DNA of 64,000 bases. Source: a bacterium. GTDB taxonomy: Bacteria; T1Sed10-126. Of this stretch, positions 20,528-37,828 are shown piece by piece. The notes beneath the pieces were generated by a model, which saw only the letters and a list, made by a program, of their open reading frames with translations, ran no database searches and was not told the DNA's origin. The stretch spans positions 380 to 64,379 of the forward strand of contig PWHN01000057.1 of NCBI GenBank assembly GCA_003554945.1, given 5' to 3'. Numbering within the stretch: the stretch's first letter is position 1; each line of letters starts with the position of its first letter. A program made the translations under genes and the position numbers.

Positions 20528-20561
20528 CTCGTAATTTTACAATTCTCCACGGGAGGTTATT

Positions 20562-23433: not shown

Positions 23434-23533
23434 CGATTTCGTCTTAAATACTCGCAGCGACTTCTTACTCAAGGACACATCACCTCTGTGGGGACGTGTC
23501 TCTGCCCTCTTCGAAAACTCCTTCGATATTCTT

Positions 23534-24238
23534 TTGGATGATTACCTGGTAAATATCAACTCCGCTCGTCCCGCCCTACATCCGCTGGGAATACTGAGCC
23601 CCGCTTCACTTATTTCTGAAGTCCGCACTGACCAGACGGCTACACTTGAGCCCAACCAGCTTCAAATTGGGTCGCGACAATTCCAGCTTCAGACCCATTT
23701 CGAGCCACCACCTCCTCCTGCAGCAAATGAATTAAAAAATATTGATCTCTCCCCCCTGCGCAAATGTCTCAAAATCCAGGTTAATAAAAGCCGACACAGC
23801 TCTTGCCTCTTGACAAACGATTTTGACTCTCCGCCTGAAATTATTTCCCGCGCCGGACGCGCTTTAGTCGCACAGCTGAATGAAAAACAGGTTGATTTTA
23901 ACCGGCTGTTAAATTACTTTGGCGACGGTGAGGGACTTACCCCTTCTTTTGACGACATCTGCGCTGGAATGCTCTTCGTTGACCGACGGCTAAACTGCAG
24001 CAATGTTAAGCTGCCCGGCGACCTTTTCGAACGGCTAAAAAACAAAACTACCCTGACCAGCCGCTGGCAACTTGAGTTTGCTCGGCGGGGGAAGCTCAGT
24101 CTGGCTTTCGAACAGCTATTTAACCGGCTGATAGAGGGAAAAGTAGCAATTAAAGACTGCTTCTCAGCCTGTCGCTGCGGTCATACTTCGGGTGCAGACA
24201 TATTAACCGGAATTTATCTTTATTTTGAAAATTTCTAA
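23534..24238 (+). CDS. Hypothetical protein, possibly DUF2877-like (YlbF/AllH-type partner of FdrA and DUF1116). It starts with TTG in the track, and the start is uncertain.
   Basis: The protein is 234 aa with GDGEGLTPSFDD and GHTSGADILTG motifs. Its position directly after the Mo-hydroxylase and before fdrA/DUF1116 supports the call. The assignment rests mainly on context. Confidence 0.35.
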   Translation: MDDYLVNINSARPALHPLGILSPASLISEVRTDQTATLEPNQLQIGSRQFQLQTHFEPPPPPAANELKNIDLSPLRKCLKIQVNKSRHSSCLLTNDFDSPPEIISRAGRALVAQLNEKQVDFNRLLNYFGDGEGLTPSFDDICAGMLFVDRRLNCSNVKLPGDLFERLKNKTTLTSRWQLEFARRGKLSLAFEQLFNRLIEGKVAIKDCFSACRCGHTSGADILTGIYLYFENF

Positions 24239-24639
24239 CCACTCAACACTGTTCACCCAACATATAGTTAAATGCAAAGTTTGACCGTTTTATACCTTCC
24301 TGATCAACATAATCTGTGCCTCAAACTATGCATATAACTTAACCAACCGCGAGTTGCCTTCAAAACCACCTTTTTAACACCATATTACTCTCCCCTAACT
24401 ACGCCCACGTCCGTTCAACCCCTTTAACGCACTCTTTTTAGACAGCCTTTTCCCTGCACAAAGCCTGAAAAACCCAATTTTTCCTGGTTTTTACAAAATT
24501 GAATTGGTAACTGTTTAGCGCCTATCGTCATATTTCGTTTAGTTCGTCATTTCGACCCCAGAGCTGGAAAACACCAGCTTAAAGCTCAAAGCTAATTCAA
24601 ATCCATTAAGTGCTCATAATCTTGTTCTTTAACTTGAGT

Positions 24640-25060
24640 TTGGTTTTGGTCTTTCGCCTCTTCGCCCCGTCGCCCGCTCGCCTCTTCGAGCATTCCGGCC
24701 TCCGAGCCGGAATCCAGAGGCGTTGAGCTTTTGATTGTCATTCCTGCGGAAGCGGGAATCCAGCGGCGTTGAATTTGAATTAAGAAAAAGTCAATGTCAA
24801 AGTCACTGGATTGTCCGGTCAAGCCGGACAATGACGACCAATAGATCAAGCCCGTTCTTGAATTTGACGTCATTCCGGCCTCCGAGCCGGAATCCATCTT
24901 GAAGAGCAGTAATCGGTAATCGGTAATCAGTGTTCAGTGAAGTCAAAACCGATTACCGAATACCGAACACCGTTTACTGAACTTCTTGCAGGTCAAGTCC
25001 TGGGACGTTATTCGTTCCCGCAATGACGGCCGATAGAGCATACCCGTAACGGCGGCGGTG
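24640..25060. repeat. Copy A of a modular hairpin-rich miniature repeat family. It holds dRS3-like hairpins of the form ATTCC(G/C)GC-N6-8-GC(G/C)GGAAT at 24692..24713, 24740..24759 and 24871..24892. It holds a TTGTCCGG..CCGGACAA hairpin at about 24810..24830, a TCGGTAA heptamer array at about 24908..24960, and a TTATTCGTTCCCGCAATGAC module at about 25005.
   Basis: I read these directly from the sequence. The same modules recur at 26430..26600, 28805..29060, 33470..33710 (inverted) and 57610..57700. Track ORF 24592..24897 is an artefact of the repeat. Confidence 0.8.
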
Positions 25061-25154
25061 GCGCCAAATAAATACGCAAATTGCTATCAATCGAATAAAA
25101 ACAAATATTGTTCTGTTATATTCAATGAATAGATAAACGACCACACTAACTACA

Positions 25155-25283
25155 CCCCCTCAGAAAAAATTTCCTCCTTGAAGGGGGGAAAGACAAAGGG
25201 AGATGAAATATAGCCCTCGCACGCAAGGGAAAAGGCAACTTTTTAGAAAGTCTCTAACTACGTCAAAGTATTTTGACGTAGTT
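25155..25283. repeat. H3 module (CCCCCTT..GGGGAAAGACAAAGGG) at 25155..25200, followed by a perfect 12-bp-stem hairpin AACTACGTCAAA-GTAT-TTTGACGTAGTT at 25256..25283 that abuts the integrase start codon
   Basis: The inverted repeat is read directly. The H3 module also occurs at 26458..26505, 33528..33575 and 57617..57650. Confidence 0.75.
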
Positions 25284-26288
25284 ATGGATAAATTCCACGC
25301 TGATGGGTGGTCTATCATGCAAAAAACATTGGAGGTAAGTGGCGGCTCCATGCCGACGGCACATCTGCTGGCGGAGGATTTTCAACGCATGTTGACGGAA
25401 AACGACTACAGTCAGAGCACCTGCTCCACTTACCTCCGCTTCGTCGAACCCTTCCTCAAAGAAAATCCTCATCCCGCAGAAATGGACCGTTATGACGTCG
25501 GACGGTACATCCTCAAGTGGCGCAATCAGCTCAGCAATAACTCGATGAAACTGGCCACCAGCGCCCTGATTAAATTTTACAAATACCTTAAGTTTTACCA
25601 CGGTTTCCGACGGGCCGACGCAGTTATCGATCACATCCAGGATTTGAAGGGAGAATTTTTTCGCACCCCCTCTTTTCAACCGGACCCGATGAGCGAGGAT
25701 GAATTAAGTACCCTCTTCCAGTACACCCTGGGGGCAAATCCCCGTCAGGTTAGGCGCCGAAATATCATTACTATACTGCTGGGCACCGGTCTGCGCGTCT
25801 CCGAATTCTGTGCCGTGCGCCGCGATCAGGTTGCGATCCACGAACCCGGCGTCCAGTCACATATTTTTGTTCCCGGGGGAAAAACAGCTTCGGCCCGGCG
25901 CAAAATTCCTCTCCACCGCGACTTCCCCTACTCCAACTCCTGGATACTCGGCGAACGAGTCGTCGAAGCATTCGACAGCTATGAAAAAGTCCGACCCGTT
26001 CCTCGAACTGAGGAAACAGAAAATTTCTGGTTTATCTCCGAACGGGGCCAGCCCATCTCCAAACGTTCCGTCCAGGCAATGTTTACCCGTCTCTGTGAAA
26101 AATCAGGGCTGCAGAAAAAAAGGGCGGAAGCTGATGAAAACTCACTGTCGGTTCACAATCTACGTCACACTTTTGCCACTCAACTGGCCATGCAGGGAGC
26201 TAACGCCTACCAGATCAAGGCTATCCTCGGCCACGCTTCAGTCAGCACCTCCCAGGCCTACATCCGACTGCTCGATCGCGTCGGCTAA
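25284..26288 (+). CDS. Tyrosine recombinase/integrase. The start is ambiguous (25203, 25284, 25317 or 25350). The track's first 27 codons are encoded by repeat DNA and are probably not real.
   Basis: The catalytic motifs are present: box I GLRVSEFCAV, the K-box GGKTASAR, and HNLRHTFAT...LGHASVSTSQAYIR with the tyrosine. About 90 residues lie between the K-box and the HxLRH box, which is longer than in XerC/D. Confidence 0.8.
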   Translation: MDKFHADGWSIMQKTLEVSGGSMPTAHLLAEDFQRMLTENDYSQSTCSTYLRFVEPFLKENPHPAEMDRYDVGRYILKWRNQLSNNSMKLATSALIKFYKYLKFYHGFRRADAVIDHIQDLKGEFFRTPSFQPDPMSEDELSTLFQYTLGANPRQVRRRNIITILLGTGLRVSEFCAVRRDQVAIHEPGVQSHIFVPGGKTASARRKIPLHRDFPYSNSWILGERVVEAFDSYEKVRPVPRTEETENFWFISERGQPISKRSVQAMFTRLCEKSGLQKKRAEADENSLSVHNLRHTFATQLAMQGANAYQIKAILGHASVSTSQAYIRLLDRVG

Positions 26289-26429
26289 AAAACAGTCGTT
26301 ACTCACTCCAAATAGCTTACCTGACCGACCGGGGATAACTAACGCCGGTCCAACCCTACGTTTTTATTTAGTTTATCAGCAATTTTCGATACACTTGTAG
26401 AAATAAGAAACTCACTCAAAACCACTCAA

Positions 26430-26600
26430 CGTCACCCCGGACAGGTGACCCCGGAATCCCCCCTTTCTTTTTCCCCCCTTGAAGGGGGGAAAGACAAAGG
26501 GGGGTGAAGAAAATGGATTGCGGAGCGGGGTCCGCAATGACGAGCAATAGGTCACTATCTGAAAAGTTATTCGTTCCCGACAATGACAAAAACATTGGAA
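26430..26600. repeat. Partial copy of the modular repeat family. It holds a GTCACC..GGTGAC hairpin, an H3 module at 26458..26505, the H2 hairpin ATTGCGGAGCGGGGTCCGCAAT at 26517..26538, and a TTATTCGTTCCCGACAATGAC module.
   Basis: Read directly. Track ORF 26412..26615 on the minus strand lies entirely within the repeat and is probably spurious. Confidence 0.75.
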
Positions 26601-26635
26601 GATTTTAAACCCCACAACAGAGGAGTGTAAAAACT

Positions 26636-28162
26636 ATGGAAGTAATCACTAAAATCAAGCAGGACACCTATTACGACTCAGTGACACTGATGCTGGTCAG
26701 CAGCGAAATTGAAAAAATGGAAGCTGTTGAAGAAGCGATGATCGGCATGGGAACGGATTACAACATCGAGAGCCTTCAACGGCTGGATATGTTTGGCACA
26801 GAGCACGAGGACGCAACACCGAATGACCTGATTCTCACCGTAAAAGCAGCCGACGCCAAAGCGGGCGAAAAAGCTATTGAAACGGCAGAAGAAAAGCTGA
26901 AAGAAAAATCTCAATCCAGCGGTGGCGTAAGCGCCTACAACCCTCCGACCCAGGAGAGAGCCGCCGACATGCTCCCCGGGGCCAACATGGTCTTAATTTC
27001 TGTGCCGGGTGAGCACGCAGCCAAAGAGGCCCACGAAGCACTGGACAACGACCGGCACGTCATGCTGTTTTCGGACAACGTAAGCCTGGATGAAGAACTG
27101 GAACTGAAAGAAAAAGCGGTGAAAAAAGGACTGCTTATGATGGGGCCCGACTGCGGGACCTCAATTATCAACGGCGTGCCACTCGCCTTCGCCAACGCCG
27201 TTCGCGGGGGTAATATTGGACTGGTCGCCGCCTCGGGCACCGGCCTGCAGGAGACTACGAGCATAATTCATCAGCTTGGTGGCGGTATCAGTCAGGCTAT
27301 CGGTGTCGGCGGACGCGACCTCTCTGCCCAAATTGAAGGGCGAATGACGCTACTGGCCGCCAGGGCCCTCGATCGCGACGACAATACCGATGTTATCACC
27401 CTGATTTCTAAACCACCCGACGAGACAATCCTCGCACCTCTGCTAAAGGAGCTTAATTCACTCAGTAAACCGGTAGTCATTTATTTTATTGGTGCCGATC
27501 AGGCAAAAATTGAAGCGGAAGGATTCACCGCCGCCGGCGACCTGGAGAACGCTGCCGTACAATCCTGCCGGCTCGCTGGTGTTGATGCTGCCGACTCACT
27601 AATAAACCAGGCGGAAATTGAACAAAAAGCGGCCAAAATACAGCTTTCCGGTCCTTATCTACGTGGTCTCTATTCCGGCGGCACTCTCTGCGATGAAGCC
27701 CAGCGAATCCTCCACGATCGGCTGGATGAAATTTACTCGAACACACCCGTTGAAGGTTGTCACGAACTCGAAGACCTCTATCAAAGCAAAGCGCACACAA
27801 TCATCGACCTCGGCGAGGACGAGTTCACCCAGGGACGCGCTCACCCCATGATCGATCCTACACTGCGTAAAGAAAGAATTGTTCAAGAAATGCAAGACCC
27901 TGAAGTGGGGATAATACTGTTGGACGTCGTCCTCGGCTATGGCGCTCATCCGGACATGGCCGGTGCCCTCGTCGAAGCTATAGAAGAGGGTAAATCCGCC
28001 GCGGACAGTCCACCGCTGGTTGCCGCTTCTATCTGTGGAACCGACCAGGACCCGCAAAATTACGAACAGCAGAAAAATACCCTCGAAGAGGCTGGGGTTT
28101 ATGTTTTCCCATCTAACGTCTCCATGGTAAAATTTGCATATCAGTTGTTTGAAACGACATAA
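26636..28162 (+). CDS. fdrA: FdrA family protein (succinyl-CoA-synthetase-like fold), reported in E. coli as the AllF subunit of oxamate carbamoyltransferase
   Basis: The protein is 508 aa. Its N-terminus MEVITKIKQDTYYDSVTLMLVSSEI is characteristic of FdrA. CoA-binding and ligase-like glycine-rich segments are present (GPDCGTSIINGV, GLVAASGTGLQE). The SD is AGAGGAG. Confidence 0.7.
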   Translation: MEVITKIKQDTYYDSVTLMLVSSEIEKMEAVEEAMIGMGTDYNIESLQRLDMFGTEHEDATPNDLILTVKAADAKAGEKAIETAEEKLKEKSQSSGGVSAYNPPTQERAADMLPGANMVLISVPGEHAAKEAHEALDNDRHVMLFSDNVSLDEELELKEKAVKKGLLMMGPDCGTSIINGVPLAFANAVRGGNIGLVAASGTGLQETTSIIHQLGGGISQAIGVGGRDLSAQIEGRMTLLAARALDRDDNTDVITLISKPPDETILAPLLKELNSLSKPVVIYFIGADQAKIEAEGFTAAGDLENAAVQSCRLAGVDAADSLINQAEIEQKAAKIQLSGPYLRGLYSGGTLCDEAQRILHDRLDEIYSNTPVEGCHELEDLYQSKAHTIIDLGEDEFTQGRAHPMIDPTLRKERIVQEMQDPEVGIILLDVVLGYGAHPDMAGALVEAIEEGKSAADSPPLVAASICGTDQDPQNYEQQKNTLEEAGVYVFPSNVSMVKFAYQLFETT

Positions 28163-28278
28163 CTAAACGCAAAAACGCCAAGAAATCGATTTGGAGGATG
28201 ACATCAAAAACTATAACAACTTTAAGATCAAGAGCGAAAAACACTAAGTCGCAAAGACGCTAAGGAAGACAATTAATT

Positions 28279-28521
28279 ATGGACGAGAATTATTTGAGTA
28301 ATCAAATAATCAATGCTGCTATTGAGGTTCATCAATGGCTCGGTGGACCTGGTTTGTTGGAGTCTGTGTACGAAAAATCTTTAGCAAAAGAGTTACGGGA
28401 TCGTAACTTTAAAATTCAACAACAAGTCAGCTTCCCTATTGAATATAAAGAGGAAGAACTTAATGAAAAATTCAGATAAGAAGGTATCCATCGAGTGGTT
28501 AACAATTTGTAATTAAAAACT
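28279..28521 (+). pseudogene. Degraded GxxExxY-family gene (PD-(D/E)XK-like, often transposon-associated). The N-terminal 66 codons are followed by a stop and then by the family's C-terminal EGIHRVVNNL in frame. About 50-60 internal codons are deleted.
   Basis: The N-terminal part is NAAIEVHQWLGGPGLLESVYEKSLAKELRDRNFKIQQQVSFPIEYKEEEL..FR. After the TAA the frame continues EGIHRVVNNL-stop, which matches the family C-terminus G(I/L)xRxVNN. The local region is AT-rich. Confidence 0.6.
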
Positions 28522-28590
28522 TTGCGGCTTTGCGCCTTCGCGTTTTTGCTTTTTTTCACTATGTCATTAACCTATAACAGGGTGATTTTT

Positions 28591-28764
28591 ATGAAGCCAA
28601 TTGACTCGCTTTTTAACGAAGAAGTTAAAGTGATTAACCTGGGGATTCCCGCTTTTCGCGACGACCTTGACGAGCAGGGCGTGGAAGTGGTTCACGTCGA
28701 CTGGAGTCCTCCGGCCGGCGGCAACAAAAAAATGCAGTCACTGCTCAACCAGCTCAAGGGGTGA
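28591..28764 (+). CDS. Small hypothetical protein of 57 aa (MKPIDSLFNEEVKVINLGIPAFRDDLDEQGVEVVHVDWSPPAGGNKKMQSLLNQLKG), located between fdrA and the DUF1116 gene
   Basis: An SD-like AGGGTGA lies 7 nt upstream of the ATG. There is no recognisable family. The longer track ORF 28522..28764 begins with a hydrophobic stretch that is unlikely to be real. Confidence 0.35.
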   Translation: MKPIDSLFNEEVKVINLGIPAFRDDLDEQGVEVVHVDWSPPAGGNKKMQSLLNQLKG

Positions 28765-28804
28765 CTATTAAAAATCATTTGAGCTTATTAGGATTATCTC
28801 AAAA

Positions 28805-29060
28805 TTTTTCCTCGTCATTCCCGCGGAAGCGGGAATCAAGTTGAAGTTCAGTAACCGGTAATCGGTAGTCGGTGATCGGTAACTTCGGTAGTTCAACATC
28901 AAAGTCACTGGATTACCCGGTCGAGCCTTGGGGCGTTATTCGTTCCGGGCAATGACGTTCGGTAATGCTGAATTACGGGTCGGACCCCACAATGATGAGC
29001 GTAAGGTCTTGACTGTCATTCCCGCGGAAGCGGGAATCCAGCGACGTTGAACTTATGATG
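28805..29060. repeat. Copy B of the modular repeat family, in the same orientation as copy A. It holds ATTCCCGCGGAAGCGGGAAT hairpins at 28817..28836 and 29017..29036, a TCGGTAA heptamer array, and TCAAAGTCACTGG and TTATTCGTTCCGGGCAATGAC modules.
   Basis: Read directly. The module order is shuffled relative to copy A. Confidence 0.8.
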
Positions 29061-29119
29061 GTTAAGAAGCATCCGCTTTTGATATTATGATGTTAACCCG
29101 CAACACACAACACGATGTT

Positions 29120-29306
29120 ACTTTCACACTTTTTCACTTTTTAACTTTTTAACTTTGCAACTTTATAACTTTCACACTTTTAAACTTTGTAACTTTCACA
29201 CTTTTAAACTTTGTAACTTTCACACTTTTAAACTTTGTAACTTTCACACTTTTAAACTTTGTAACTTTCACACTTTTTAACTTTCACACTTTTTAACTTT
29301 CACACT
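29120..29306 (+). promoter_or_regulatory. Tandem array of about 23 octamers (A/C)ACTTTNN. It includes four perfect copies of the 24-mer CTTTCACACTTTTAAACTTTGTAA and ends in CTTTCACACTCTAAGGAGG (the SD), 9 nt before the DUF1116 ATG. It is extremely G-poor.
   Basis: Direct reading shows ACTTT recurring with strict 8-bp period over about 187 bp. A second shorter array of the same unit precedes the next gene. Confidence 0.8.
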
Positions 29307-29322
29307 CTAAGGAGGAAATAAA

Positions 29323-30570
29323 ATGAACGTTGACATAGAAAAAGCTAATCAGAAGGTAATCGATAAAATCCAGGCTGGTAATCCGGTACTTAAAGGTATT
29401 GGAACGGTTGGTGAAAATGTCCCGGAAGTTCACAAAAAAATGATACTTCACGCCGGCCCGCCAGTGGAATGGGAAGACATGAGTGGCCCCACCAGGGGAG
29501 CTGTAATTGGCGGTTTAATCTACGAGGGGCTTGCCAAAGACGAGGACGAGGCGCGGGCGCTCGCCGCATCCGGTGAAATAGAGTTTGACCCCTGGCACGA
29601 ACATAGTGGTGTTGGGCCGATGGCCGGCGTCGCCACTGTCAGCATGCCGGTCTGGATTGTGGAAAATACGACTGAAGGCGGGCAAGCCTACTGCACATTC
29701 AACGAAGGGCTTGGCAAGGTCTTACGTTACGGTGCCTACGCGCCTGATGTGATTGACCATCTTAAGTGGATGGAAAATGAGCTGGCTCCAGTTTTAACTG
29801 AAACGCTGGCCCAGCTTGATAATGAAATAAACCTGAAGAGTATTATCGCTGAAGCTCTTGAGATGGGAGATGAGGTTCACAACCGCAACCGGGCGGCCAC
29901 TTCACTCTTCTACCGCCGCATCACTCCGGCTCTTTTGGAAACCGATTTCAACGTTGATAAAAAGAAAAAGGTCCTGGAATTTATTGACTCTAACGATCAT
30001 TTCTTTTTAAATCTCAGCATGCCGGCGGCCAAATCAATGATCCAGGTCGCCGAGGGAATTGAAGGCTCCTCTATCCTGACAGTTTTAGCACGAAACGGTA
30101 CTGAAACGGGAATAAAAATAGCCGGACTGGGTGACCAGTGGTTCACCGCCAAAGCGCCGGTTCCCGAGGGCCTGCTCTTCTCCGGTTACGATAAAGACGA
30201 CGCCTGTGCCGATATTGGCGACAGCACGATCACTGAAACTGTCGGTCTTGGTGCCTTTTCCATGGCTGCCTCACCGGCAATTGTTAAATTTGTCGGCGGC
30301 AGCGTCGAGGACGCTTTCAACTTCACCCGTAAAATGTATGAAATCTGTGAAGACGAGTCCGAAAACTTCAAGGTGGCCACGCTGGACTTTCGCGGCGCAC
30401 CGACCGGAGTCAACTTGCTAAAAGTCTGTGAGCTTGATATCACGCCCCAGATTAATACCGGTATAGCCCACAAGGAGCCGGGCATAGGACAAATTGGGGC
30501 CGGACTTGTTCAGGCACCAATGAAGTGTTTCGAACAGGCGCTGGAGGCGTTCGCCGCCAAATACGCATAA
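29323..30570 (+). CDS. DUF1116 family protein (YlbE-like), reported as the AllG subunit of oxamate carbamoyltransferase
   Basis: The protein is 415 aa. The conserved N-terminal block ILHAGPPVEWEDMSGPTRGAVIGGLIYEGLAKDEDEA and the block NEGLGKVLRYGAY are typical of YlbE/DUF1116. The gene context with fdrA supports it. Confidence 0.65.
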   Translation: MNVDIEKANQKVIDKIQAGNPVLKGIGTVGENVPEVHKKMILHAGPPVEWEDMSGPTRGAVIGGLIYEGLAKDEDEARALAASGEIEFDPWHEHSGVGPMAGVATVSMPVWIVENTTEGGQAYCTFNEGLGKVLRYGAYAPDVIDHLKWMENELAPVLTETLAQLDNEINLKSIIAEALEMGDEVHNRNRAATSLFYRRITPALLETDFNVDKKKKVLEFIDSNDHFFLNLSMPAAKSMIQVAEGIEGSSILTVLARNGTETGIKIAGLGDQWFTAKAPVPEGLLFSGYDKDDACADIGDSTITETVGLGAFSMAASPAIVKFVGGSVEDAFNFTRKMYEICEDESENFKVATLDFRGAPTGVNLLKVCELDITPQINTGIAHKEPGIGQIGAGLVQAPMKCFEQALEAFAAKYA

Positions 30571-30574
30571 CTAA

Positions 30575-30633
30575 AACTTTCACACTTTGTAACTTTCAAA
30601 CTTTCACACTTTGTAACTTTCAAACTTTCACAC
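30575..30633 (+). promoter_or_regulatory. Second tandem array of about 7.5 octamers (AACTTTCA / CACTTTGT / AACTTTCA ...). It ends in CTTTCACACTCTAAGGAGG, 8 nt before the cyclase ATG.
   Basis: Direct reading. The terminal 19 nt are identical to the end of the first array. Confidence 0.8.
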
Positions 30634-30650
30634 TCTAAGGAGGAGTCACA

Positions 30651-31430
30651 ATGGTAAAACTTTATGATTTAACACAAGATCTGAGCATTCACACCCCCCC
30701 CTGGCCCAGTTACATGCCCCTGCAACTGCAGTATTTTAAACGTATTTCAGGTGCCCACATGGGACAGGGAGCCAACGGTCAGATCGTCAAGACGAGTATG
30801 CACGTCGGCACACACATAGACGGCGAGAAACACTTTGACGCCAAGGGACGGACGATAGGCGAAGTCCCGCTTGAGGAATTTTGCGGGGAGGGAGTAGTCG
30901 TTGACATCTCTGATGATGTTGAAGATTTTTCTCTTTACTCACCCGAGATGCTGGAATCAAAGGCCGACATTCGTGAAGGAGACATTCTAATAATTAACAC
31001 CGGCTACCACAGATACGCCTGGGACCAGCCCGAGAGCGACGAGCTGCGCTACATGGTCAAACACCCGGGCCCAAACCCTGACTTTCACAAGTGGGCCCTG
31101 GAGATGGATTTCAAGTGGATTGGCGTCGACTGCGGTAGTGCCGACCATCCGATGAACACTATCCTTCGTGACTGGCACCCCGGTCTGTTCGAAAAAGCCG
31201 AGGCAAAACTTAAAGAAGACTACGGCAAGAGCTGGGACGAGATGTTCCCCTACGAGGAATACTACCAGGTCATGCACCTTGATCTATTTCCAGAGGGCCT
31301 GATCCACGCCGAAAACCTCGGCGGCGAAATTAACGAGCTCAACAACCAGCGCTCCTGGATTGGGCTTTTCCCCTGGAAAGGTATCGAAATGGAGTCCTCA
31401 ATCTGCCGCATTGCTGCTTTTGAGTTTTAA
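30651..31430 (+). CDS. Cyclase-family metal-dependent hydrolase (kynurenine formamidase / isatin hydrolase family)
   Basis: The signature motif HxGTHxDxxxH appears as MHVGTHIDGEKHF. The protein is 259 aa. The SD is AAGGAGG. Confidence 0.75.
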   Translation: MVKLYDLTQDLSIHTPPWPSYMPLQLQYFKRISGAHMGQGANGQIVKTSMHVGTHIDGEKHFDAKGRTIGEVPLEEFCGEGVVVDISDDVEDFSLYSPEMLESKADIREGDILIINTGYHRYAWDQPESDELRYMVKHPGPNPDFHKWALEMDFKWIGVDCGSADHPMNTILRDWHPGLFEKAEAKLKEDYGKSWDEMFPYEEYYQVMHLDLFPEGLIHAENLGGEINELNNQRSWIGLFPWKGIEMESSICRIAAFEF

Positions 31431-31550
31431 ATCCTCGTTGGCTCCTTAATAACTACTCATCTATCCCCTCTCCCCTGGAGGGAGAGGGTCAGAGCCTGCC
31501 CCGGACTTGATCCGGGGGGAAAAAAAGGTGAGTAGTTACGATATATTTTA

Positions 31551-31593
31551 CAGCGGCGTGGGCAATTAAGCACCCACGCCGCTGCCTTTATTT
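31551..31593 (+). terminator. Intrinsic terminator after the cyclase gene. The 12-bp stem is CAGCGGCGTGGG..CCCACGCCGCTG and it is followed by CCTTTATTT.
   Basis: A perfect GC-rich inverted repeat with a T-rich tail, read directly. It is preceded at 31455..31530 by CCCTCTCCCCTGGAGGGAGAGGG-type hairpin repeats. Confidence 0.7.
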
Positions 31594-31900: not shown

Positions 31901-32089
31901 ATGGTTACAAAAACAAAAGGCGTGCAAAAACGTATTCGTGAGTTAGCGCCGGGGATGGAGTTGGCCAAAGCTGCTCACAGCCGCAGTGGCTCACGTCTGT
32001 TTGACGAAGGAGTAACCTTGTCGGGAGCAGACATCGACAAGCTCAAAAACTGGAACGTGCGCAGTGTCTACGTAGTCCCGGAAACCTAA
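31901..32089 (+). CDS. Small hypothetical protein of 63 aa (MVTKTKGVQKRIRELAPGMELAKAAHSRSGSRLFDEGVTLSGADIDKLKNWNVRSVYVVPET). It converges on the malic enzyme gene and overlaps its stop.
   Basis: A strong SD AAGGAGGG lies 7 nt upstream of the ATG at 31901. There is no family assignment. The track's longer version starts at 31850. Confidence 0.4.
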   Translation: MVTKTKGVQKRIRELAPGMELAKAAHSRSGSRLFDEGVTLSGADIDKLKNWNVRSVYVVPET

Positions 32090-33399
32090 GGTTCAGGCAC
32101 TGGCTCAAGCTCAACAAGACTTTCAGCGCTGGAGCGAAGCTCCGCGGCTGAAAGTTGTAGCGAAGCCACCCCTTCCTCCATTGCCTTCTCCCCAACAGCA
32201 ACGGCAGCATTGACAAAAGATTCTTTATCCTCCATTGTGGGAACAATATAATCCTCCCGCAGTCCCTTTTCTTCCGCTGTTTTAGCAATTGCCTCGGCTG
32301 CTGCTATTGCCATACCGTCGGTTACCGTCCGAGCGCGTACATCGAGTGCCCCCCGAAATATAGCCGGAAAACCAAGAGAATTATTAATCTGGTTTGGGAA
32401 ATCTGAACGTCCCGTGCCGACAACTTTAGCCCCCGCCTCTTTTGCCTCCCAGGGCCATATTTCCGGCAACGGATTTGCAACCGCGAAGACAACCGGGTTT
32501 TCATTCATCTTGGCAATCCACTCTTTTTTAACCGTTCCTGGACGCGGACAGGAGGCAGCCACCATAACATCAGTGCCTCTGATTGCTTCGCCGCTATCCC
32601 CTCGACGGTCCTCCGCATTTGATTTTTCTACCAGCTCCCATTTATAGGGGTTTTCCTGGCGCATTTGCTCGGCATCGTCGCGATCTTTGTATAAAATACC
32701 GCGGCTGTCGGCAACATAAAAGTTACCGGGGTCAGCTCCGGCAGTTTCAAGAATTCTACACAATGCAATGTTGGCGGCACCGGCTCCAATAATACTAAAT
32801 TTGGCCTCAGAGATTTTTTTGCCAACCAGTTTCAGAGCATTTATAATACCTGCCAGCTCAACGGCAGCCGTCCCCTGCTGATCATCGTGCCAGACCGGCA
32901 CGTCAAGTTCCTCGCGCAACCGGTCGAGGATATAAAAACACTTGGGAGTTTCTATATCTTCAAGATTTATCCCACCAAAAGCAGGCACTATTCTTTTCAC
33001 GGTCTCAACAAATTTGTCAGCATCTTTTACCGCCAGCGGTAGCGGAAAAGCGCTAACTCCACCAAGATATTTAAATAACATTGCTTTACCTTCCATAACC
33101 GGCAAACTTGCCTCAGGGCCAATGTCTCCCAGTCCAAGTACCCGGCTACCGTCGGTAACCACGGCAACATTGTTCCACTTGTTTGTATAGTCGTAAACCA
33201 GTTCGGGCGTCTCAGCGATCTCCTCACAGGGAGCCGCAACTCCAGGCGTATACCAGATCCCAAAATCATCCATGCTCCTGACCGGAACCTGGACCTGTCC
33301 GCCATATTTACCCCGGTATTTACGGTGCATCCCCGGCGCTTTCTGCCTTGGTTCTTCAGCTTTTCGTAAAAATTTTTCCTTTTCACTTTCGTCCGGCAT
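32086..33399 (-). CDS. maeA: NAD(P)-dependent malic enzyme (short form)
   Basis: The malic enzyme N-terminal and NAD-binding domains are present (YTPGVA, FNDDQQGTAAV, GAGAAN). The protein is 437 aa. Confidence 0.85.
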   Translation of the reverse strand: MPDESEKEKFLRKAEEPRQKAPGMHRKYRGKYGGQVQVPVRSMDDFGIWYTPGVAAPCEEIAETPELVYDYTNKWNNVAVVTDGSRVLGLGDIGPEASLPVMEGKAMLFKYLGGVSAFPLPLAVKDADKFVETVKRIVPAFGGINLEDIETPKCFYILDRLREELDVPVWHDDQQGTAAVELAGIINALKLVGKKISEAKFSIIGAGAANIALCRILETAGADPGNFYVADSRGILYKDRDDAEQMRQENPYKWELVEKSNAEDRRGDSGEAIRGTDVMVAASCPRPGTVKKEWIAKMNENPVVFAVANPLPEIWPWEAKEAGAKVVGTGRSDFPNQINNSLGFPAIFRGALDVRARTVTDGMAIAAAEAIAKTAEEKGLREDYIVPTMEDKESFVNAAVAVGEKAMEEGVASLQLSAAELRSSAESLVELEPVPEP

Positions 33400-33469
33400 C
33401 TCTAATACCTCCGCTATTTATATTCTTGCTGCTTATTTACATTTCTAACTTTTTTTACAGAACCAACCG

Positions 33470-33710
33470 ATTCCCGTCATTGAGAGAACGACTAACGTCC
33501 CAAAACTTGACCCGCAAGACATTTTTACCCCCCCTTTGTCTTTCCCCTCTTCAAGGGTGGAAAGGAAAGGGGGGATGGTCTTGAACTAAAGATTGTCATT
33601 GCGGGCTCCAACCCGCAATCCATTTTTACGGGTTTGAATGATAAACACGTCAACTTCAAGATGGATCCCGGCTCGCGCTCCCTTCGGTCGCTTGGCCGGA
33701 ATGACGGAGT
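33470..33710. repeat. Copy C of the modular repeat family, in inverted orientation relative to A/B. It holds an H3 module CCCCCCTTTGTCTTTCCCC..GGGGGG, the H2 hairpin ATTGCGGGCTCCAACCCGCAAT, and the reverse complement of the dRS3-like hairpin (GGATCCCGGCTCGCGCTCCCTTCGGTCGCTTGGCCGGAATGAC).
   Basis: Read directly. It lies between the 3' end of the fumarase beta gene and the malic enzyme promoter region. Confidence 0.75.
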
Positions 33711-34240
33711 TAGGTTTTGTGTTTTGCATCAATCGTTACAATTAATGGTCCAAACTTGTTCATTTCAAAAACCCAGACCGCTTCTGCCATCCCCAACTCC
33801 TCTAACCAGTAGACATCTGTAACACGCTCTATTGCCTCCGCGGCTGCAACAGCCGCTCCGCCGGGAAATTGTGCATATATGCATCCGCATCTTTTCATGG
33901 CCTCGGCCGTCCCCTGCCCCATACCTCCCTTGCCAATTAATACTCGTGGCGTGTATCGATTTATAAAATCAGGCGCGAAAGGCTCCATCCGCATACTGGT
34001 CGTCGGCCCGGCGGCCAGAACTTTCCACTCGCCGGCACTGCCGGCAATAAGTGGACCGCAGTGAAAAATTGCACCGCCAACTATTCTTTGTTTCAACTCG
34101 GCAGGGACTTCCGCTTCTGCATTCAATATATTATTATGGGCAGCATCACGAGCCGTAACTACGGTACCGGTCAAATATATCTCATTTCCGACTTTTAGCT
34201 TACGAACCTCCTCTTCCGTCATCGGCAGTTCAAATTCCAT
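33710..34240 (-). CDS. fumB: Class I fumarate hydratase / L(+)-tartrate dehydratase beta subunit
   Basis: The protein is a C-terminal-domain homolog of Fe-S hydro-lyase, 176 aa, and translationally coupled to the alpha subunit. Confidence 0.8.
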   Translation of the reverse strand: MEFELPMTEEEVRKLKVGNEIYLTGTVVTARDAAHNNILNAEAEVPAELKQRIVGGAIFHCGPLIAGSAGEWKVLAAGPTTSMRMEPFAPDFINRYTPRVLIGKGGMGQGTAEAMKRCGCIYAQFPGGAAVAAAEAIERVTDVYWLEELGMAEAVWVFEMNKFGPLIVTIDAKHKT

Positions 34241-35121
34241 TAGAGCCGCACCAGCCTCCAGGAGCCTTTTGGATCAAACTCAATCACAGAGTATCTATGG
34301 GCCCAGCACTGTATAACGATACCGACGGGAAATGAAGCCGGATGGCGGGCGGACAGATTTAGATGCACCGCCAGCGCGGTCGGCTCACCGCCCAGTCCCA
34401 TCGGCCCGGCTCCCCGGGCATTAATTGCCTCCAGTATCTCTGCTTCTATCTCCGCCGCTTCAGGATCCGGATTTGGCTCGCCGATTGGCCTGAACAGACT
34501 TTTTTTAGCCTGTTTCAATGCAGAATCAGCGCTCCCGCCAACAGCAACGCCAACCAGCACCGGTGGACAGGGCTGGCCGCCGGCGGCCACTACATGCTCT
34601 ACGACGACATCTTTAACAACATTCAGACCGGTAGACGGGGCAAGCATTTTCAAAGCACAGTGATTTTCCGCACCTCCACCTTTGGGAAATATATAAATTT
34701 TACAGCTATCCCCGGCCTCAAGCTCCCAATCAACCAGAGGCATCTGCGGACCGCTGTTGTCCCCGTAGTTCTTCCCATTCAGTGGGTTAACCGTGTTTGG
34801 TCGCAGAGGGACTGCACGAGTGGCCGTTGCTACTGCCTCTTTTATCGCTGGATATATCTCTTCCTGAGCGGGGAAATCATGTCCTGCTTCAACAAAAAAT
34901 GCCAGCAGACCGGTATCCTGACAGAGCGGCAGCTGTTTCTCTTCTGCCAGTTCTATATTCTTTAAAATTGTCTGCAATTGAGTTAAAGCCGCGCCCGTGG
35001 CTGTTTTGGCCGCTTCTCGCAGACGCTCAGTAACAGCAGGTGGCAGGGTGGTTACGGCAGACTTTATCCCCGCTACCAGTCCCGCTTCCATCTCTTCGCG
35101 TATCACAGAAGAATTATTCAC
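34240..35121 (-). CDS. fumA: Class I fumarate hydratase / tartrate dehydratase alpha subunit
   Basis: The protein is 293 aa with the Fe-S hydro-lyase N-terminal domain. Cysteines of the cluster ligand set are present. Confidence 0.8.
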   Translation of the reverse strand: MNNSSVIREEMEAGLVAGIKSAVTTLPPAVTERLREAAKTATGAALTQLQTILKNIELAEEKQLPLCQDTGLLAFFVEAGHDFPAQEEIYPAIKEAVATATRAVPLRPNTVNPLNGKNYGDNSGPQMPLVDWELEAGDSCKIYIFPKGGGAENHCALKMLAPSTGLNVVKDVVVEHVVAAGGQPCPPVLVGVAVGGSADSALKQAKKSLFRPIGEPNPDPEAAEIEAEILEAINARGAGPMGLGGEPTALAVHLNLSARHPASFPVGIVIQCWAHRYSVIEFDPKGSWRLVRL

Positions 35122-36086: not shown

Positions 36087-36095
36087 CTCGCTCCG

Positions 36096-37211: not shown

Positions 37212-37809
37212 TGACTTCAGCCTCGCTATCCTGCTGATTTAGACGCAAATTTTCTTGCCGTATCTTCAAAAACTGCTGGCCTATGTGAGCAGTTAAGTTC
37301 CCATGTACTTTCAATCCGGCCGAGGGGTTACGGTAGACAAAACGTTCCAGTCCTTTTCTGAATAGAACCAGGGTCTTTGTTGAAGCACGAGTACGAGCAT
37401 CATACATACGGCGATGTTCACAACATAAGGCTAGTTCCCCAAAGATATTTCCCGACTCGAGATAACTACCATCCATCTGCTTGACCGCCGGGCAACTTAA
37501 CTCAACCCGGCCATTACAGATTATATACATTGCAGTCGCCGGATCTCCTTCGGAAAATATGCTCTCCCCTTTGGTAAACTGTCGCTCGTGCAGATAATCA
37601 GCAAGCGCCAGATATTGAGAGCTGCGCAACCCACTAAATACCTCGATATCGGACAGCAGGTCAATTAACTCCTGAGCCTCTGGATCTTCCGGTTCATGTA
37701 TTTGCTCCCACCATTCAACTACCATCCCGCGCAGATCACACCAGTAAAGCTTTATCTTTTCTTTTATGTCGTTGAGAATCTTCTTTCCCTCCTTTGTATA
37801 ACCAGGCAT
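37204..37809 (-). CDS. Cyclic-nucleotide-binding domain protein with no HTH output domain. The start is chosen at MPGYTKEG because an SD GGGAGGA sits 7 nt upstream. The track's GTG start at 37872 includes repeat-derived codons.
   Basis: The cNMP-binding core is FSGLRSSQYLALADYL...GESIFSEGDPATAMYIICNGRVEL...GNIFGELAL. Confidence 0.7.
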   Translation of the reverse strand: MPGYTKEGKKILNDIKEKIKLYWCDLRGMVVEWWEQIHEPEDPEAQELIDLLSDIEVFSGLRSSQYLALADYLHERQFTKGESIFSEGDPATAMYIICNGRVELSCPAVKQMDGSYLESGNIFGELALCCEHRRMYDARTRASTKTLVLFRKGLERFVYRNPSAGLKVHGNLTAHIGQQFLKIRQENLRLNQQDSEAEVNE

Positions 37810-37828
37810 AAAATATCCTCCCATGTTT

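What the first reader, a model, noticed from the sequence alone, without database searches (positions are those of the whole stretch)
29120..29306. About 23 tandem octamers (A/C)ACTTTNN, including four perfect copies of the 24-mer CTTTCACACTTTTAAACTTTGTAA, form the entire 5' leader of the DUF1116 gene and end directly in its Shine-Dalgarno sequence.
A strict 8-bp periodicity of the pentamer ACTTT is maintained over about 187 bp. The tract is almost devoid of G (about one G per 24 nt), so as RNA it would be unstructured and pyrimidine/A-rich. It terminates in CTTTCACACTCTAAGGAGGAAATAAAATG. Period 8 does not fit DNA bending (10.5) or CRISPR. Unit size and sequence do not resemble known iterons. 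Possibilities are a ribosome standby/S1-binding translational enhancer, a multivalent binding platform for an RNA- or ssDNA-binding regulator, or an operator array for a DNA-binding protein recognising ACTTT every 8 bp. I am not aware of a described bacterial leader of this type.
Basis: seen in the sequence. Interest (0 to 1): 0.72.

Follow-up and report, generated by a model that had tools for sequence, protein, structure and literature searches.

The report
Octamer repeat leaders before ribosome sites
Two neighbouring genes of an uncultured soda-lake bacterium are each preceded by a run of 8-base repeats with a fixed ACTTT core that ends at the ribosome-binding site; the repeats are real, recent and under constraint, and probably tune translation, but they are a new variant of a known kind and their function is untested.

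Summary
Positions 29120-29308 hold 23 in-register ACTTTNNN units plus a terminal ACTCT, followed directly by AAGGAGG and the AllG (DUF1116) start codon.

It fills the gap between AllG and the next gene, a cyclase, and ends in the same 22-nt junction.

A relative with 95% identical AllG has both arrays at the same sites. It has different copy numbers (11 and 6 units) and different spacers. Synonymous sites differ by about 31%, yet all 47 full units keep ACTTT. More distant relatives (73-80% identity) have compact gaps and no arrays. A short array with the ACTCTAAGGAGG junction also precedes a pilin-like gene in a metagenome that holds this organism.

My reading is a lineage-specific, slippage-grown repeat that is transcribed in sense. 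Its ACUUU core is most likely read on single-stranded RNA next to the ribosome-binding site, by an S1- or cold-shock-type protein, and so modulates translation.

Whether it enhances or damps translation is not resolved. Neutral junk and a DNA operator remain rivals.

Precedents exist: TAACTGA heptamers, the Moraxella UspA2 AGAT repeats, the T7 epsilon element, and the 8-bp arrays of TP228 parH.

The parts
29120..29308 (+). Array 1. It has 23 in-register octamers ACTTT+NNN. The spacers in order are CAC TTC TTA TTA GCA ATA, then (CAC TAA GTA) x4, then CAC TTA CAC TTA CAC. A terminal degenerate unit ACTCT follows.
   Evidence: The array is also seen in JGI and Logan short-read contigs that break inside it.
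29309..29325 (+). Shine-Dalgarno sequence AAGGAGG (29309-29315), a 7-nt spacer, and the ATG of AllG (29323-29325).
29323..30570 (+). AllG (DUF1116), the oxamate carbamoyltransferase subunit gene; 415 aa.
   Evidence: Pfam PF06545, E = 3.6e-93.
30576..30636 (+). Array 2. It has 7 octamers with spacers CAC GTA CAA CAC GTA CAA CAC, plus a terminal ACTCT. It fills the 80-nt gap between AllG and the cyclase gene.
30637..30653 (+). Shine-Dalgarno sequence AAGGAGG (30637-30643), a 7-nt spacer, and the ATG of the cyclase gene. The 22-nt junction AACTTTCACACTCTAAGGAGGA is identical to the one after array 1.
30651..31430 (+). Putative cyclase-family gene (PF04199), the last gene of the operon.
   Evidence: The gene order is the same in relatives.
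29062..29091 (+). Promoter-like site TTAAGA-18-TATGAT, which also contains TGATATTAT. It lies within a ~95-nt block upstream of array 1 that is about 96% identical in the relative L129.
   Evidence: consensus match only; conservation. Function is inferred, not shown.
29018..29037 (.). REP-like hairpin ATTCCCGC-GGAA-GCGGGAAT. It belongs to a mosaic intergenic repeat family that has invaded this operon.
28591..28764 (+). Conserved 57-aa ORF between AllF and AllG. It marks the upstream end of the 558-nt gap that carries the REP elements and array 1.
   Evidence: no Pfam match.
31551..31584 (+). Perfect 12-bp hairpin followed by CCTTTATTT. It is the likely terminator at the end of the operon.
   Evidence: The terminator role is inferred.

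Best explanation
The arrays are a lineage-specific octanucleotide minisatellite. They grew in place by replication slippage from a short pyrimidine-rich motif (CTTT(T)CAC) that already sat just 5' of the ribosome-binding sites of allG and the cyclase gene. This origin is inferred.

The arrays are transcribed in sense as part of the operon mRNA, or for array 1 from a promoter about 25 nt upstream. They form a G-poor, weakly structured RNA tract that ends directly at a consensus Shine-Dalgarno sequence.

The core (A/C)ACUUU recurs every 8 nt and is held constant by selection, while the next two to three bases drift. I take this as the signature of a sequence-specific reader of single-stranded RNA that binds one unit at a time.

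The most likely readers are the OB-fold proteins that act at this position in other bacteria. One candidate is ribosomal protein S1 on the 30S subunit, which targets pyrimidine- and U-rich sequence upstream of the SD. The other is a cold-shock-domain protein, which occupies 6-7 nt and whose B. subtilis CspB consensus is GTCTTTG/T.

Binding next to the Shine-Dalgarno sequence would set the rate of translation initiation of the downstream cistron. Copy number (23 vs 11, and 7 vs 6, in two species) would act as an evolvable gain control.

I favour an enhancing, standby-type role. The direction of the effect is not established.

What is shown: the anatomy, the second array, conservation of the site and the core across two species, and absence from more distant relatives.
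For: 1. Anatomy. Two arrays lie on the sense strand and both end in the identical junction AACTTTCACACTCTAAGGAGGA, followed by 7 nt and ATG.

2. A third case. The array ACTTTTAA ACTTTCTA ACTTTTCA ACTCT|AAGGAGG lies 10 nt before the ATG of a pilin-like gene with an N_methyl motif, on contig L131. L131 comes from metagenome SL_8KL_010_SED, which also holds this organism: its valS is 99.96% identical in nucleotides. L131 carries the same mosaic repeat family.

3. Conservation with turnover. The relative L129/L130 (AllG 95% aa; coding-sequence identity 87-91% nt, third codon positions 31% different) has both arrays at the same two sites. It has 11 and 6 units, different spacers, and the same junction.

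4. Constraint on the core. All 47 non-terminal units in the four arrays keep ACTTT. The 10 distinct units differ only at positions 6-8, and position 8 is always A or C. At least 9 changes all falling in 3 of 8 positions gives roughly (3/8)^9, about 1.5e-4, if changes were unconstrained.

5. Strand asymmetry. G is 2-5% and C is 22-29% in the arrays. There is no ATG in the tract and stop codons occur in all three frames. The RNA is weakly folded.

6. Array 2 occupies a complete intercistronic gap, where the events expected are those on the mRNA.

7. Seeds in array-less relatives. L126 has TTTCACACAGGAGG before allG and ATCTTTTCACTGGAGG before the cyclase gene. L125 has AATCTTTTAAGGAGG before the cyclase gene.

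8. Candidate readers are encoded in the window. These are a six-domain S1 at 5519-7273 (-) and a 66-aa CspA-type protein at 48796-48996 (+).

9. Precedents:
- The T7 epsilon enhancer UUAACUUUA(A) (PMC9590205). UUAACUUU occurs four times in array 1.
- B. subtilis CspB prefers GTCTTTG/T (PMC1904285).
- TAACTGA repeats upstream of start codons, with S1, Csp and Csr proposed as readers (PMC4679880).
Against: - There are no expression or 5'-end data. Transcription of array 1 from its own promoter rests on a 9-of-12 consensus match.
- Predicted accessibility of the SD-to-AUG segment is not improved by the arrays. Mean unpaired probability is 0.18-0.32 in the window, 0.52-0.54 in L129, and 0.25-0.71 in array-less orthologues. 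Opening energy is 7.2-7.6 kcal/mol in the window against 4.8-10.2 in those orthologues. A simple 'open leader' benefit is therefore not supported. CT-rich motifs close to an SD are known to damp translation (bioRxiv 10.1101/086108).
- Only about 3-4 units lie within reach of a ribosome docked at the SD, so 23 units are not explained.
- The arrays are dispensable for the gene family, since relatives at 73-80% identity lack them.
- Only 2 of about 50 SD-led genes in the window have an array.
- ACTTT-octamer arrays in general are common: more than 120 loci in both genome and viral collections. They show no significant bias towards start codons (21 sense vs 11 antisense within 30 nt, p = 0.11; viral 9 vs 11).
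- The epsilon-like octamer is absent from array 2.
- Three genes in sense orientation is weak statistics (chance about 1/8).
Confidence: 0.4

Rival explanations
1. The arrays are a neutral or nearly neutral slippage minisatellite. This genome is prone to simple-sequence and REP-like repeat proliferation. On this view the octamer arrays are tolerated expansions with no function of their own. Copy number drifts, and the junction with the Shine-Dalgarno sequence exists only because the seed motif happened to lie there.
For: - The arrays are restricted to one shallow clade and absent at 73-80% AllG identity.
- Copy number and higher-order units differ between the two species.
- The same operon has been invaded by an integrase gene, a PDDEXK_3 fragment, REP hairpins and heptamer arrays.
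- Other small period-8 and period-7 arrays lie nearby.
- Seeds are present in array-less relatives.
- Generic ACTTT octamer arrays are common and not tied to start codons.
Against: - There is no change in ACTTT in 47 units across two species whose synonymous sites differ by 31%, while positions 6-8 carry 10 variants. Homogenisation by slippage would also have homogenised the spacers.
- Both arrays are retained at both sites in both species, with an identical junction.
- A third gene carries the same junction.
Confidence: 0.22
2. The arrays are a negative RNA-level element. They would act as a multicopy weak anti-Shine-Dalgarno or insulator: CUUUC and CUUU can pair with GGAGG and AAGG through G-U pairs. 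Either way they lower or uncouple expression of the downstream cistron, and a consensus SD partly compensates.
For: - CT-rich 3-5-mers within 25 nt upstream of an SD silence translation, and the effect grows with their number (bioRxiv 10.1101/086108).
- Predicted SD-to-AUG unpaired probability is low in the window leaders (0.18-0.32).
- There are 23 matches to R-N-W-T-T in array 1, one per unit.
- The accompanying SD is unusually strong (UAAGGAGG).
Against: - The invariant part is ACUUU, not the C-flanked CUUUC that would pair best. Only about one unit in three carries CUUUC.
- Opening energies are within the range of array-less orthologues.
- L129 leaders with arrays are predicted to be fairly open (0.52-0.54).
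- It is not known whether this lineage has RNase E.
Confidence: 0.15
3. The arrays are a double-stranded DNA operator or centromere-like array. A small DNA-binding protein, for example a ribbon-helix-helix dimer, would bind one ACTTT box per 8 bp and coat the DNA cooperatively. This is how ParG acts on the ACTC-N4 boxes of TP228 parH/OF and how omega acts on heptads. The coat would repress or roadblock transcription.
For: The geometry is the same as a characterised system: a constant short box, an AT-rich spacer, an 8-bp period, up to 20 boxes, and a position immediately upstream of the regulated genes (PMC3130281). Array 1 lies just downstream of a promoter-like site.
Against: - No RHH, ParA or ParG gene was found among the long ORFs and 10 small ORFs tested around the operon.
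- The context is chromosomal and housekeeping (rpsA, cmk, valS).
- Array 2 fills an intercistronic gap with no room for a promoter.
- The spacers are depleted in G but not in C, a strand asymmetry that a duplex reader does not need.
- All three known cases end exactly at an SD on the sense strand.
Confidence: 0.1
4. The array is a Rho loading (rut) site or a Nus/BoxA-type element in the leader that controls transcription elongation into allG and the cyclase gene.
For: The tract has C far in excess of G, is unstructured and is longer than 70 nt, as is typical of rut sites.
Against: - YC dinucleotides, the preferred contacts of Rho's primary binding site, are depleted: 4.8 per 100 nt against 15.4 in the rest of the window.
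- No unit matches the BoxA consensus GCTCTTTAACAA within 3 mismatches.
- Rfam finds nothing.
Confidence: 0.05

Closest known systems
TAACTGA heptamer direct repeats upstream of start codons in marine Beggiatoaceae, cyanobacteria and some Bacteroidetes (MacGregor 2015, PMC4679880). Related: contiguous heptamer repeats near start codons in Nostoc PCC 7120 (bioRxiv 10.1101/2022.06.06.494920).
   Same: - Short tandem direct repeats in intergenic DNA, in forward orientation, ending a few nucleotides before the start codon or SD.
- Few G residues.
- Indels in whole-unit steps between related strains.
- No proven function; S1, Csp and Csr have been proposed as readers.
- The host genome here also carries TAACTGA-like heptamers (TTACTGA, TTACCGA) in its mosaic repeats.
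   Different: - The unit here is 8 nt, with an invariant pentamer and a free triplet, rather than a fixed heptamer.
- The arrays are much longer than those of the Guaymas Beggiatoaceae genome (BOGUAY): 23 units against 2-6.
- They are followed by a consensus SD, whereas most BOGUAY repeats replace the SD.
- Only 2 arrays occur in 64 kb, against 169 sets per BOGUAY genome.
- The host is a deep-branching, uncultured soda-lake lineage.
Simple-sequence repeats in the 5' UTR that set expression level, for example AGAT(6-23) upstream of Moraxella catarrhalis uspA2 (as summarised in PMC4679880).
   Same: A tandem repeat lies between the putative promoter and the start codon. Copy number differs between lineages (23 vs 11; 7 vs 6), which makes a 'tuning knob' role plausible.
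   Different: - The unit is 8 nt with internal variation, not a perfect tetramer.
- One array is intercistronic.
- The host is not a pathogen and the genes are not surface-antigen genes.
- No data on expression against copy number exist here.
The T7 gene 10 epsilon translational enhancer UUAACUUUA(A) (PMC9590205), and the A/U- and pyrimidine-rich S1-dependent enhancers upstream of the SD
   Same: The core is the same: (U)UAACUUU occurs four times in array 1. The position is just 5' of a strong SD, and the tract is unstructured.
   Different: - Epsilon is a single copy, whereas this is a 7-23-unit array.
- Array 2 and the L129 arrays mostly lack the UUAAC part.
- Complementarity to the host 16S rRNA could not be examined.
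TP228 parH centromere and OF operator: ACTC boxes with 4-bp AT-rich spacers, bound by ParG ribbon-helix-helix dimers (PMC3130281).
   Same: The period is 8 bp, with a constant short box beginning ACT and a variable AT-rich spacer. There are about 20 boxes, placed immediately upstream of the regulated operon.
   Different: - TP228 is a plasmid partition system with parF and parG adjacent. Here the context is chromosomal and no RHH or ParA gene was found.
- ParG boxes work in either orientation and occur in mixed orientation. Here all units are direct, sense to the gene, and end at an SD.
CT-rich anti-Shine-Dalgarno insulators in sigma-54 promoter regions (bioRxiv 10.1101/086108).
   Same: Short CU-rich motifs lie within 25 nt upstream of a purine-rich SD, and their effect accumulates with their number.
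   Different: - Those are irregular 3-5-mers, not a periodic array.
- Their effect was shown experimentally to be silencing. Here the sign is unknown, and the conserved pentamer is not the best SD complement.

Membership tests
Start-codon-proximal tandem repeats of the TAACTGA type (PMC4679880) | Tandem direct repeats of the heptamer TAACTGA or close variants. | tested here: not met
   The unit is an octamer ACTTT+NNN. TAACTGA-like heptamers do occur elsewhere in the genome's mosaic repeats but not in these arrays.
Start-codon-proximal tandem repeats of the TAACTGA type (PMC4679880) | Intergenic, in forward orientation, ending within a few nucleotides of the start codon or SD. | tested here: met
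   Array 1, array 2, both L129 arrays and the L131 array all end directly at AAGGAGG, 7-10 nt before ATG, on the sense strand.
Start-codon-proximal tandem repeats of the TAACTGA type (PMC4679880) | Many sets spread over the genome, in front of unrelated genes. | tested here: inconclusive
   Two arrays occur in 64 kb, and none of about 50 other SD-led genes has one. One further case lies before a pilin-like gene in L131. The rest of the genome could not be scanned.
5'-UTR simple-sequence tuning repeats (Moraxella uspA2 AGAT type) | The repeat lies in the transcribed leader, between promoter and start codon. | not testable with these tools
   Only a 9-of-12 promoter-like match at 29062-29091 is available. 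There are no transcript data.
5'-UTR simple-sequence tuning repeats (Moraxella uspA2 AGAT type) | Copy number differs between related strains. | tested here: met
   23 vs 11 units and 7 vs 6 units between the window and L129. This is a comparison between species, not between strains.
5'-UTR simple-sequence tuning repeats (Moraxella uspA2 AGAT type) | Copy number changes expression. | not testable with these tools
   This needs reporter assays.
T7 epsilon-type translational enhancer | Sequence UUAACUUUA upstream of the SD. | tested here: inconclusive
   TTAACTTT (8 of 9) occurs four times in array 1. It is absent from array 2, whose units read GTAACTTT, CAAACTTT and CACACTTT.
T7 epsilon-type translational enhancer | Enhances translation; originally linked to complementarity with 16S rRNA nucleotides 458-466. 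| not testable with these tools
   There is no 16S rRNA gene in the window and no expression data.
RHH operator/centromere arrays (TP228 parH/OF) | A constant short box with an AT-rich spacer at an 8-bp period, in arrays of about 8-20 boxes. | tested here: met
   This is a resemblance in geometry only.
RHH operator/centromere arrays (TP228 parH/OF) | A cognate RHH protein and ParA-type ATPase encoded next to the array, on a mobile replicon. | tested here: not met
   Pfam scans of 30 long ORFs (17031-31430, 802-15837, 32086-43640 and valS) and of 10 small ORFs around the operon found no RHH, ParG or ParA. The context is chromosomal (rpsA, cmk, valS).
Rho utilisation (rut) site | An unstructured tract with C in excess of G, rich in YC dinucleotides. 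| tested here: not met
   C exceeds G and the tract is unstructured. However, YC dinucleotides occur at 4.8 per 100 nt against 15.4 in the background.
BoxA / Nus-factor site | Match to the consensus GCUCUUUAACAA. | tested here: not met
   No hit within 3 mismatches inside either array.
CT-rich anti-SD insulator (bioRxiv 10.1101/086108) | CT-rich 3-5-mers within 25 nt upstream of the SD that sequester it. | tested here: inconclusive
   The motifs are present. Predicted SD-to-AUG unpaired probability is 0.18-0.32 in the window but 0.52-0.54 in L129. Opening energies lie within the range of array-less orthologues.
Any Rfam RNA family | Covariance-model match. | tested here: not met
   There are no gathering-level hits in the window. 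The only hit in 28700-30750 at E <= 1 is a chance match to mir-24.

The most novel reading that the evidence does not exclude
The periodic ACUUU array is a dedicated multivalent operator on mRNA for a specific oligomeric or cooperatively binding single-stranded-RNA protein of this uncultured lineage. It would be analogous in logic to TRAP on (G/U)AG repeats, or to T4 gp32 on its own unstructured leader. The protein would polymerise along 8-nt registers up to the Shine-Dalgarno sequence and switch translation of a small regulon (allG, the cyclase gene, a pilin gene). That would be a new class of post-transcriptional operator.
Probability: 0.12. Interest if true: 0.75.

Novelty: new variant of a known kind. 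Interest (0 to 1): 0.42.

Why it matters
If the core is read on the mRNA, these arrays are a natural, copy-number-graded series of a five-base translation signal placed directly against a consensus ribosome-binding site. There are 6, 7, 11 and 23 or more units in two species.

That is a ready-made experiment for an old question: how sequence upstream of the Shine-Dalgarno sequence (S1 and cold-shock-protein binding, standby sites, epsilon-type enhancers) sets initiation rates. It would also give a compact tunable part for synthetic biology.

The case also adds an octamer example, from a deep uncultured lineage, to the unexplained start-codon-proximal tandem repeats of Beggiatoaceae and cyanobacteria. 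This suggests that the phenomenon is broader than one heptamer.

If the arrays are neutral, the case still shows that an invariant core can persist in a fast-evolving minisatellite. That would need a mutational explanation.

Tried and rejected
1. Assembly artefact: rejected. The same array ends appear in JGI 3300027784 and SRR490134 contigs. A diverged version appears in ERZ27266011 and SRR9330141.

2. Coding sequence or upstream ORF: rejected. There is no ATG in the tract and stops occur in all sense frames.

3. Known RNA family: none found.

4. A widespread conserved class of ACTTT-octamer leaders: not supported.
- Those arrays are mostly perfect repeats of a single unit, in many phyla.
- They show no significant preference for lying sense-upstream of an ATG: 21 vs 11, p = 0.11, and 9 vs 11 in viral contigs. 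Arrays with mixed spacers show no preference either.
- Because both scans saturated, I could not compare ACTTT with control pentamers.

5. Conserved leader of the AllG family: rejected. Three relatives at 73-80% identity have gaps of 24-44 nt with ordinary SDs.

6. Organism-wide translation signal: not supported within the window.

7. BoxA: rejected.

8. rut site: unlikely, because YC dinucleotides are depleted.

9. Promoter inside the array: the consensus scan places no promoter-like site within either array.

10. RHH or ParG partner nearby: not found.

11. A simple 'more accessible RBS' benefit: not supported by partition-function folding.

12. The metagenome scan for the junction returned one contig only. 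It did not return the window's own short contigs, so its sensitivity is limited, and the number of array-led genes in this organism remains unknown.
Full report
**1. What is there**

The sequence at 29120-29308 (+) is a strict period-8 array. It has 23 units of ACTTT followed by three variable bases, then ACTCT, then AAGGAGG (29309-29315), seven bases, and the ATG at 29323.

- TRF scores it under periods 16 and 24.
- The two-unit pattern ACTTTNNNACTTT occurs 28 times in the window against 0.25 expected from shuffles, and always on the + strand.
- The tract has 5 G in 187 nt and no ATG. It has stop codons in all three sense frames.
- The gene behind it matches Pfam AllG (PF06545, formerly DUF1116).

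It lies at 30576-30636 and has seven units plus ACTCT. It fills the 80-nt gap between the AllG stop codon and the next gene, a putative cyclase at 30651-31430. Both arrays end in the identical 22-mer AACTTTCACACTCTAAGGAGGA.

**2. Context**

The window is chromosomal. It carries rpsA (six S1 domains), cmk, aromatic amino-acid genes, valS, a CspA-type gene and central-metabolism genes.

The arrays sit in a catabolic operon with this order:
- xanthine-dehydrogenase-type subunits
- AllH
- AllF
- a conserved 57-aa ORF
- AllG
- the cyclase gene

In three relatives whose AllG is 73-80% identical, this operon is compact. The gaps before allG and the cyclase gene are 24-44 nt, with ordinary Shine-Dalgarno sequences and no arrays.

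In the window the operon has been invaded:
- An integrase gene and REP-like hairpins lie between allH and allF.
- A PDDEXK_3 fragment lies after allF.
- Hairpins and heptamer arrays lie before array 1.

ValRS is at most 52% identical to anything outside a handful of unnamed MAGs. The valS gene is 99.96% identical to a contig from the soda-lake sediment metagenome SL_8KL_010_SED. The host is therefore a deep-branching, uncultured soda-lake bacterium.

**3. Independent sightings and a close relative**

The exact AllG and AllF proteins occur on short-read contigs from JGI 3300027784 and SRR490134. Those contigs break inside the arrays, and each broken end carries four 24-mers. The arrays are therefore real, and 23 units is a lower bound.

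A protein 95% identical to AllG lies on contigs from ERZ27266011 and SRR9330141. Both arrays are present there at the same two positions with the same junction. Array 1 has 11 units and array 2 has 6, and the spacers differ: CAC-TTA-ACA instead of CAC-TAA-GTA.

Coding DNA of the two lineages is 87-91% identical, and third codon positions differ at 31% of sites. Their ValRS proteins are only 85% identical. They are different species.

**4. Constraint**

Across the four arrays all 47 non-terminal units read ACTTT. The ten distinct units differ only at positions 6-8. Position 8 is A or C, position 7 is never G, and G is rare throughout.

Linking ten spacers needs at least nine changes. If changes fell evenly over eight positions, the chance that all nine fall in three of them is about 1.5e-4.

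Slippage-driven homogenisation cannot explain this, because it would homogenise the spacers as well. The pentamer, and probably the hexamer (A/C)ACTTT, is therefore under selection. A mutational process that spares it would be the alternative.

The roughly 95 nt upstream of array 1 are about 96% identical between the two species, well above the synonymous-site level. This block holds a REP-like hairpin and the promoter-like site TTAAGA-18-TATGAT. The block belongs to a repeated mosaic element, so its conservation may have other causes.

**5. Origin**

Array-less relatives already carry the seed next to the SD:
- L126 has TTTCACACAGGAGG before allG.
- L126 has ATCTTTTCACTGGAGG before the cyclase gene.
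- L125 has AATCTTTTAAGGAGG before the cyclase gene.

The simplest history is tandem amplification in place, in steps of 8 and 24 nt, of a pyrimidine-rich motif that flanked the ribosome-binding site. This is inferred.

**6. More cases**

A scan of JGI metagenome contigs for two units plus the junction found one contig, L131, from SL_8KL_010_SED. In L131 the sequence ACTTTTAA ACTTTCTA ACTTTTCA ACTCT|AAGGAGG lies 10 nt before the ATG of a gene with a type IV pilin N-terminal methylation motif. The whole leader has been duplicated once.

L131 carries the same mosaic repeat as the window, with the same hairpin and heptamer arrays; the aligned 189 columns are 78% identical, most of the difference being extra heptamer copies. 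It comes from the metagenome that holds this organism's valS. It is therefore probably the same genome or a close relative (inferred).

Within the window no other SD-led gene has an array. About 40 kb of fetched DNA from relatives has none either.

**7. Is this a general class?**

Most hits are perfect repeats of a single octamer in many phyla.

Their position relative to genes shows at most a weak bias. Within 30 nt of an ATG that opens a long ORF, 21 are sense and 11 antisense (p = 0.11). In viral contigs the counts are 9 and 11. Arrays with mixed spacers behave the same.

I therefore do not claim a widespread ACUUU-leader class. The interesting properties belong to this lineage.

**8. RNA properties**

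The leader is very weakly folded: -19.2 kcal/mol for 265 nt (z = +0.75), and -17.6 kcal/mol for 161 nt around array 2.

The purine-rich SD-to-AUG segment can still make many weak pairs with the U/C-rich array. Its mean unpaired probability is 0.18-0.32 in the window, 0.52-0.54 in L129, and 0.25-0.71 in array-less orthologues. The energy to open it is 7.2-7.6 kcal/mol in the window against 4.8-10.2 in array-less orthologues.

The arrays therefore do not obviously make the ribosome-binding site more open. Thermodynamics does not tell whether they help or hinder translation.

**9. Mechanism**

Four features point to reading on the transcript rather than on duplex DNA:
- The fixed junction with the SD at three genes.
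- The sense orientation.
- G is depleted while C is not.
- Array 2 occupies a whole intercistronic gap.

An invariant five-base core at an 8-nt step, with free spacers, points to a protein that binds one unit at a time. It does not point to selection on composition alone.

The proteins known to act on pyrimidine- or U-rich single-stranded RNA immediately 5' of the SD are ribosomal protein S1 and the cold-shock-domain proteins.
- B. subtilis CspB prefers the heptamer GTCTTTG/T (PMC1904285).
- That cold-shock-domain proteins occupy 6-7 nt is from my own knowledge.
- Both proteins are encoded in the window.

The T7 gene 10 epsilon enhancer UUAACUUUA(A) shares the core (PMC9590205). UUAACUUU occurs four times in array 1 but not in array 2.

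I therefore commit, at about 0.4, to a translation-modulating platform on the mRNA read by an OB-fold protein, more likely enhancing than damping, with copy number acting as a gain control.

Weak points:
- Only the last three or four units can touch a ribosome docked at the SD.
- The arrays are dispensable in relatives.
- There are no expression data.

**10. Rivals**

- *Neutral minisatellite (0.22).* It fits the repeat-ridden genome and the lineage restriction. It does not fit the invariant core.
- *Negative RNA element (0.15).* CT-rich motifs near an SD are known silencers (bioRxiv 10.1101/086108). Every unit also fits R-N-W-U-U, the pattern I recall for RNase E sites. However, the conserved pentamer is not the best SD complement.
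- *Duplex-DNA operator (0.10).* TP228 parH/OF has exactly this geometry: ACTC boxes, 4-bp AT-rich spacers, and one ParG dimer per box (PMC3130281). No RHH or ParA gene is nearby, the context is chromosomal, and array 2 leaves no room for a promoter.
- *rut or BoxA element (0.05).* YC dinucleotides are three-fold depleted, and there is no BoxA match.

**11. Comparison with what is known, and novelty**

The closest described phenomenon is the set of TAACTGA heptamer repeats upstream of start codons in marine Beggiatoaceae, cyanobacteria and some Bacteroidetes. Their function is also unknown, and S1, Csp and Csr were proposed as readers (PMC4679880). Related heptamer repeats near start codons occur in Nostoc (bioRxiv 10.1101/2022.06.06.494920).

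5'-UTR repeats with strain-dependent copy number that set expression are known from Moraxella uspA2 (summarised in PMC4679880).

Against these, the present case differs in four ways:
- The unit is an octamer with a fixed pentamer and a free triplet.
- The array is longer.
- It is coupled to a consensus SD rather than replacing it.
- One array is intercistronic.

I rate it a new variant of a known kind. It is moderately interesting, mainly as a natural copy-number series for testing how sequence upstream of the SD controls initiation.

Noticed in passing
window 24690-25035 and 28808-29040; L131 1790-1960: A mosaic REP-like intergenic element family. These are flanked by heptamer arrays (GTAATCG, ACCGAAT, TTACTGA), some arranged as long inverted pairs. 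A closely matching copy of the composite (78% identity over 189 aligned columns, differing mainly in heptamer copy number) occurs at a different locus, in L131. The heptamers differ by one base from the TAACTGA repeats of Beggiatoaceae and cyanobacteria.
   Followed up: partly
window 24240-26635 and 28163-28590: The operon is interrupted compared with its relatives. A tyrosine-integrase gene (25203-26288) and about 1 kb of repeats lie between allH and allF. A truncated PDDEXK_3 ORF (28279-28479) lies between allF and the conserved 57-aa ORF. Relatives L125, L126 and L128 have gaps of 5-145 nt at these places.
   Followed up: partly
window 37826-37884: A tandem repeat of 2.4 copies of a 25-mer (TTTCCATCTTTAAGTCCGTCACGTA on the + strand; 97% matches). 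It lies directly upstream of the SD and ATG of the minus-strand gene starting at 37809, in the divergent region shared with an MscS-type channel gene. It could be an operator.
   Followed up: no
window 28520-28542 (also L129 1517-1546) and window 24653-24688: Two other small period-8 arrays. One is (A/G/C)CTT(T/C)GCG x3, about 50 nt upstream of the 57-aa ORF; it is conserved in the relative and begins AACTTTGCG. The other is TTCGCCCC x4.5, beside a REP hairpin.
   Followed up: no
window 31466-31488; L131 minus strand around 640-730 and 1140-1200: The hairpin CCCTCTCCC-N5-GGGAGAGGG recurs downstream of the cyclase gene and several times in L131. It is another dispersed repeat family of this genome.
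   Followed up: no
window 28591-28764; L125 5783-5956; L126 5775-5957; L128 5787-5960: A 57-60-aa ORF with no Pfam match is conserved between allF and allG in every relative examined. It may be an unrecognised small subunit, or a split-off terminus, of the AllFGH oxamate carbamoyltransferase.
   Followed up: no
window 51948-54602 (valS) and the whole window: ValRS is 64-85% identical to a few unnamed MAG proteins and at most 52% identical to everything else. This indicates a deep-branching uncultured lineage. The same gene, at 99.96% nucleotide identity, is in the soda-lake sediment metagenome SL_8KL_010_SED.
   Followed up: partly
L131 498-606: The whole pilin leader (octamer array plus junction) is duplicated as a 57-nt unit x1.9. 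The upstream copy has lost GGAGG (ACTCTAAGTTTGATTTTT against ACTCTAAGGAGGTTGATTTAG). It is preceded by GGTTTTAC octamers in the same 8-nt register.
   Followed up: partly
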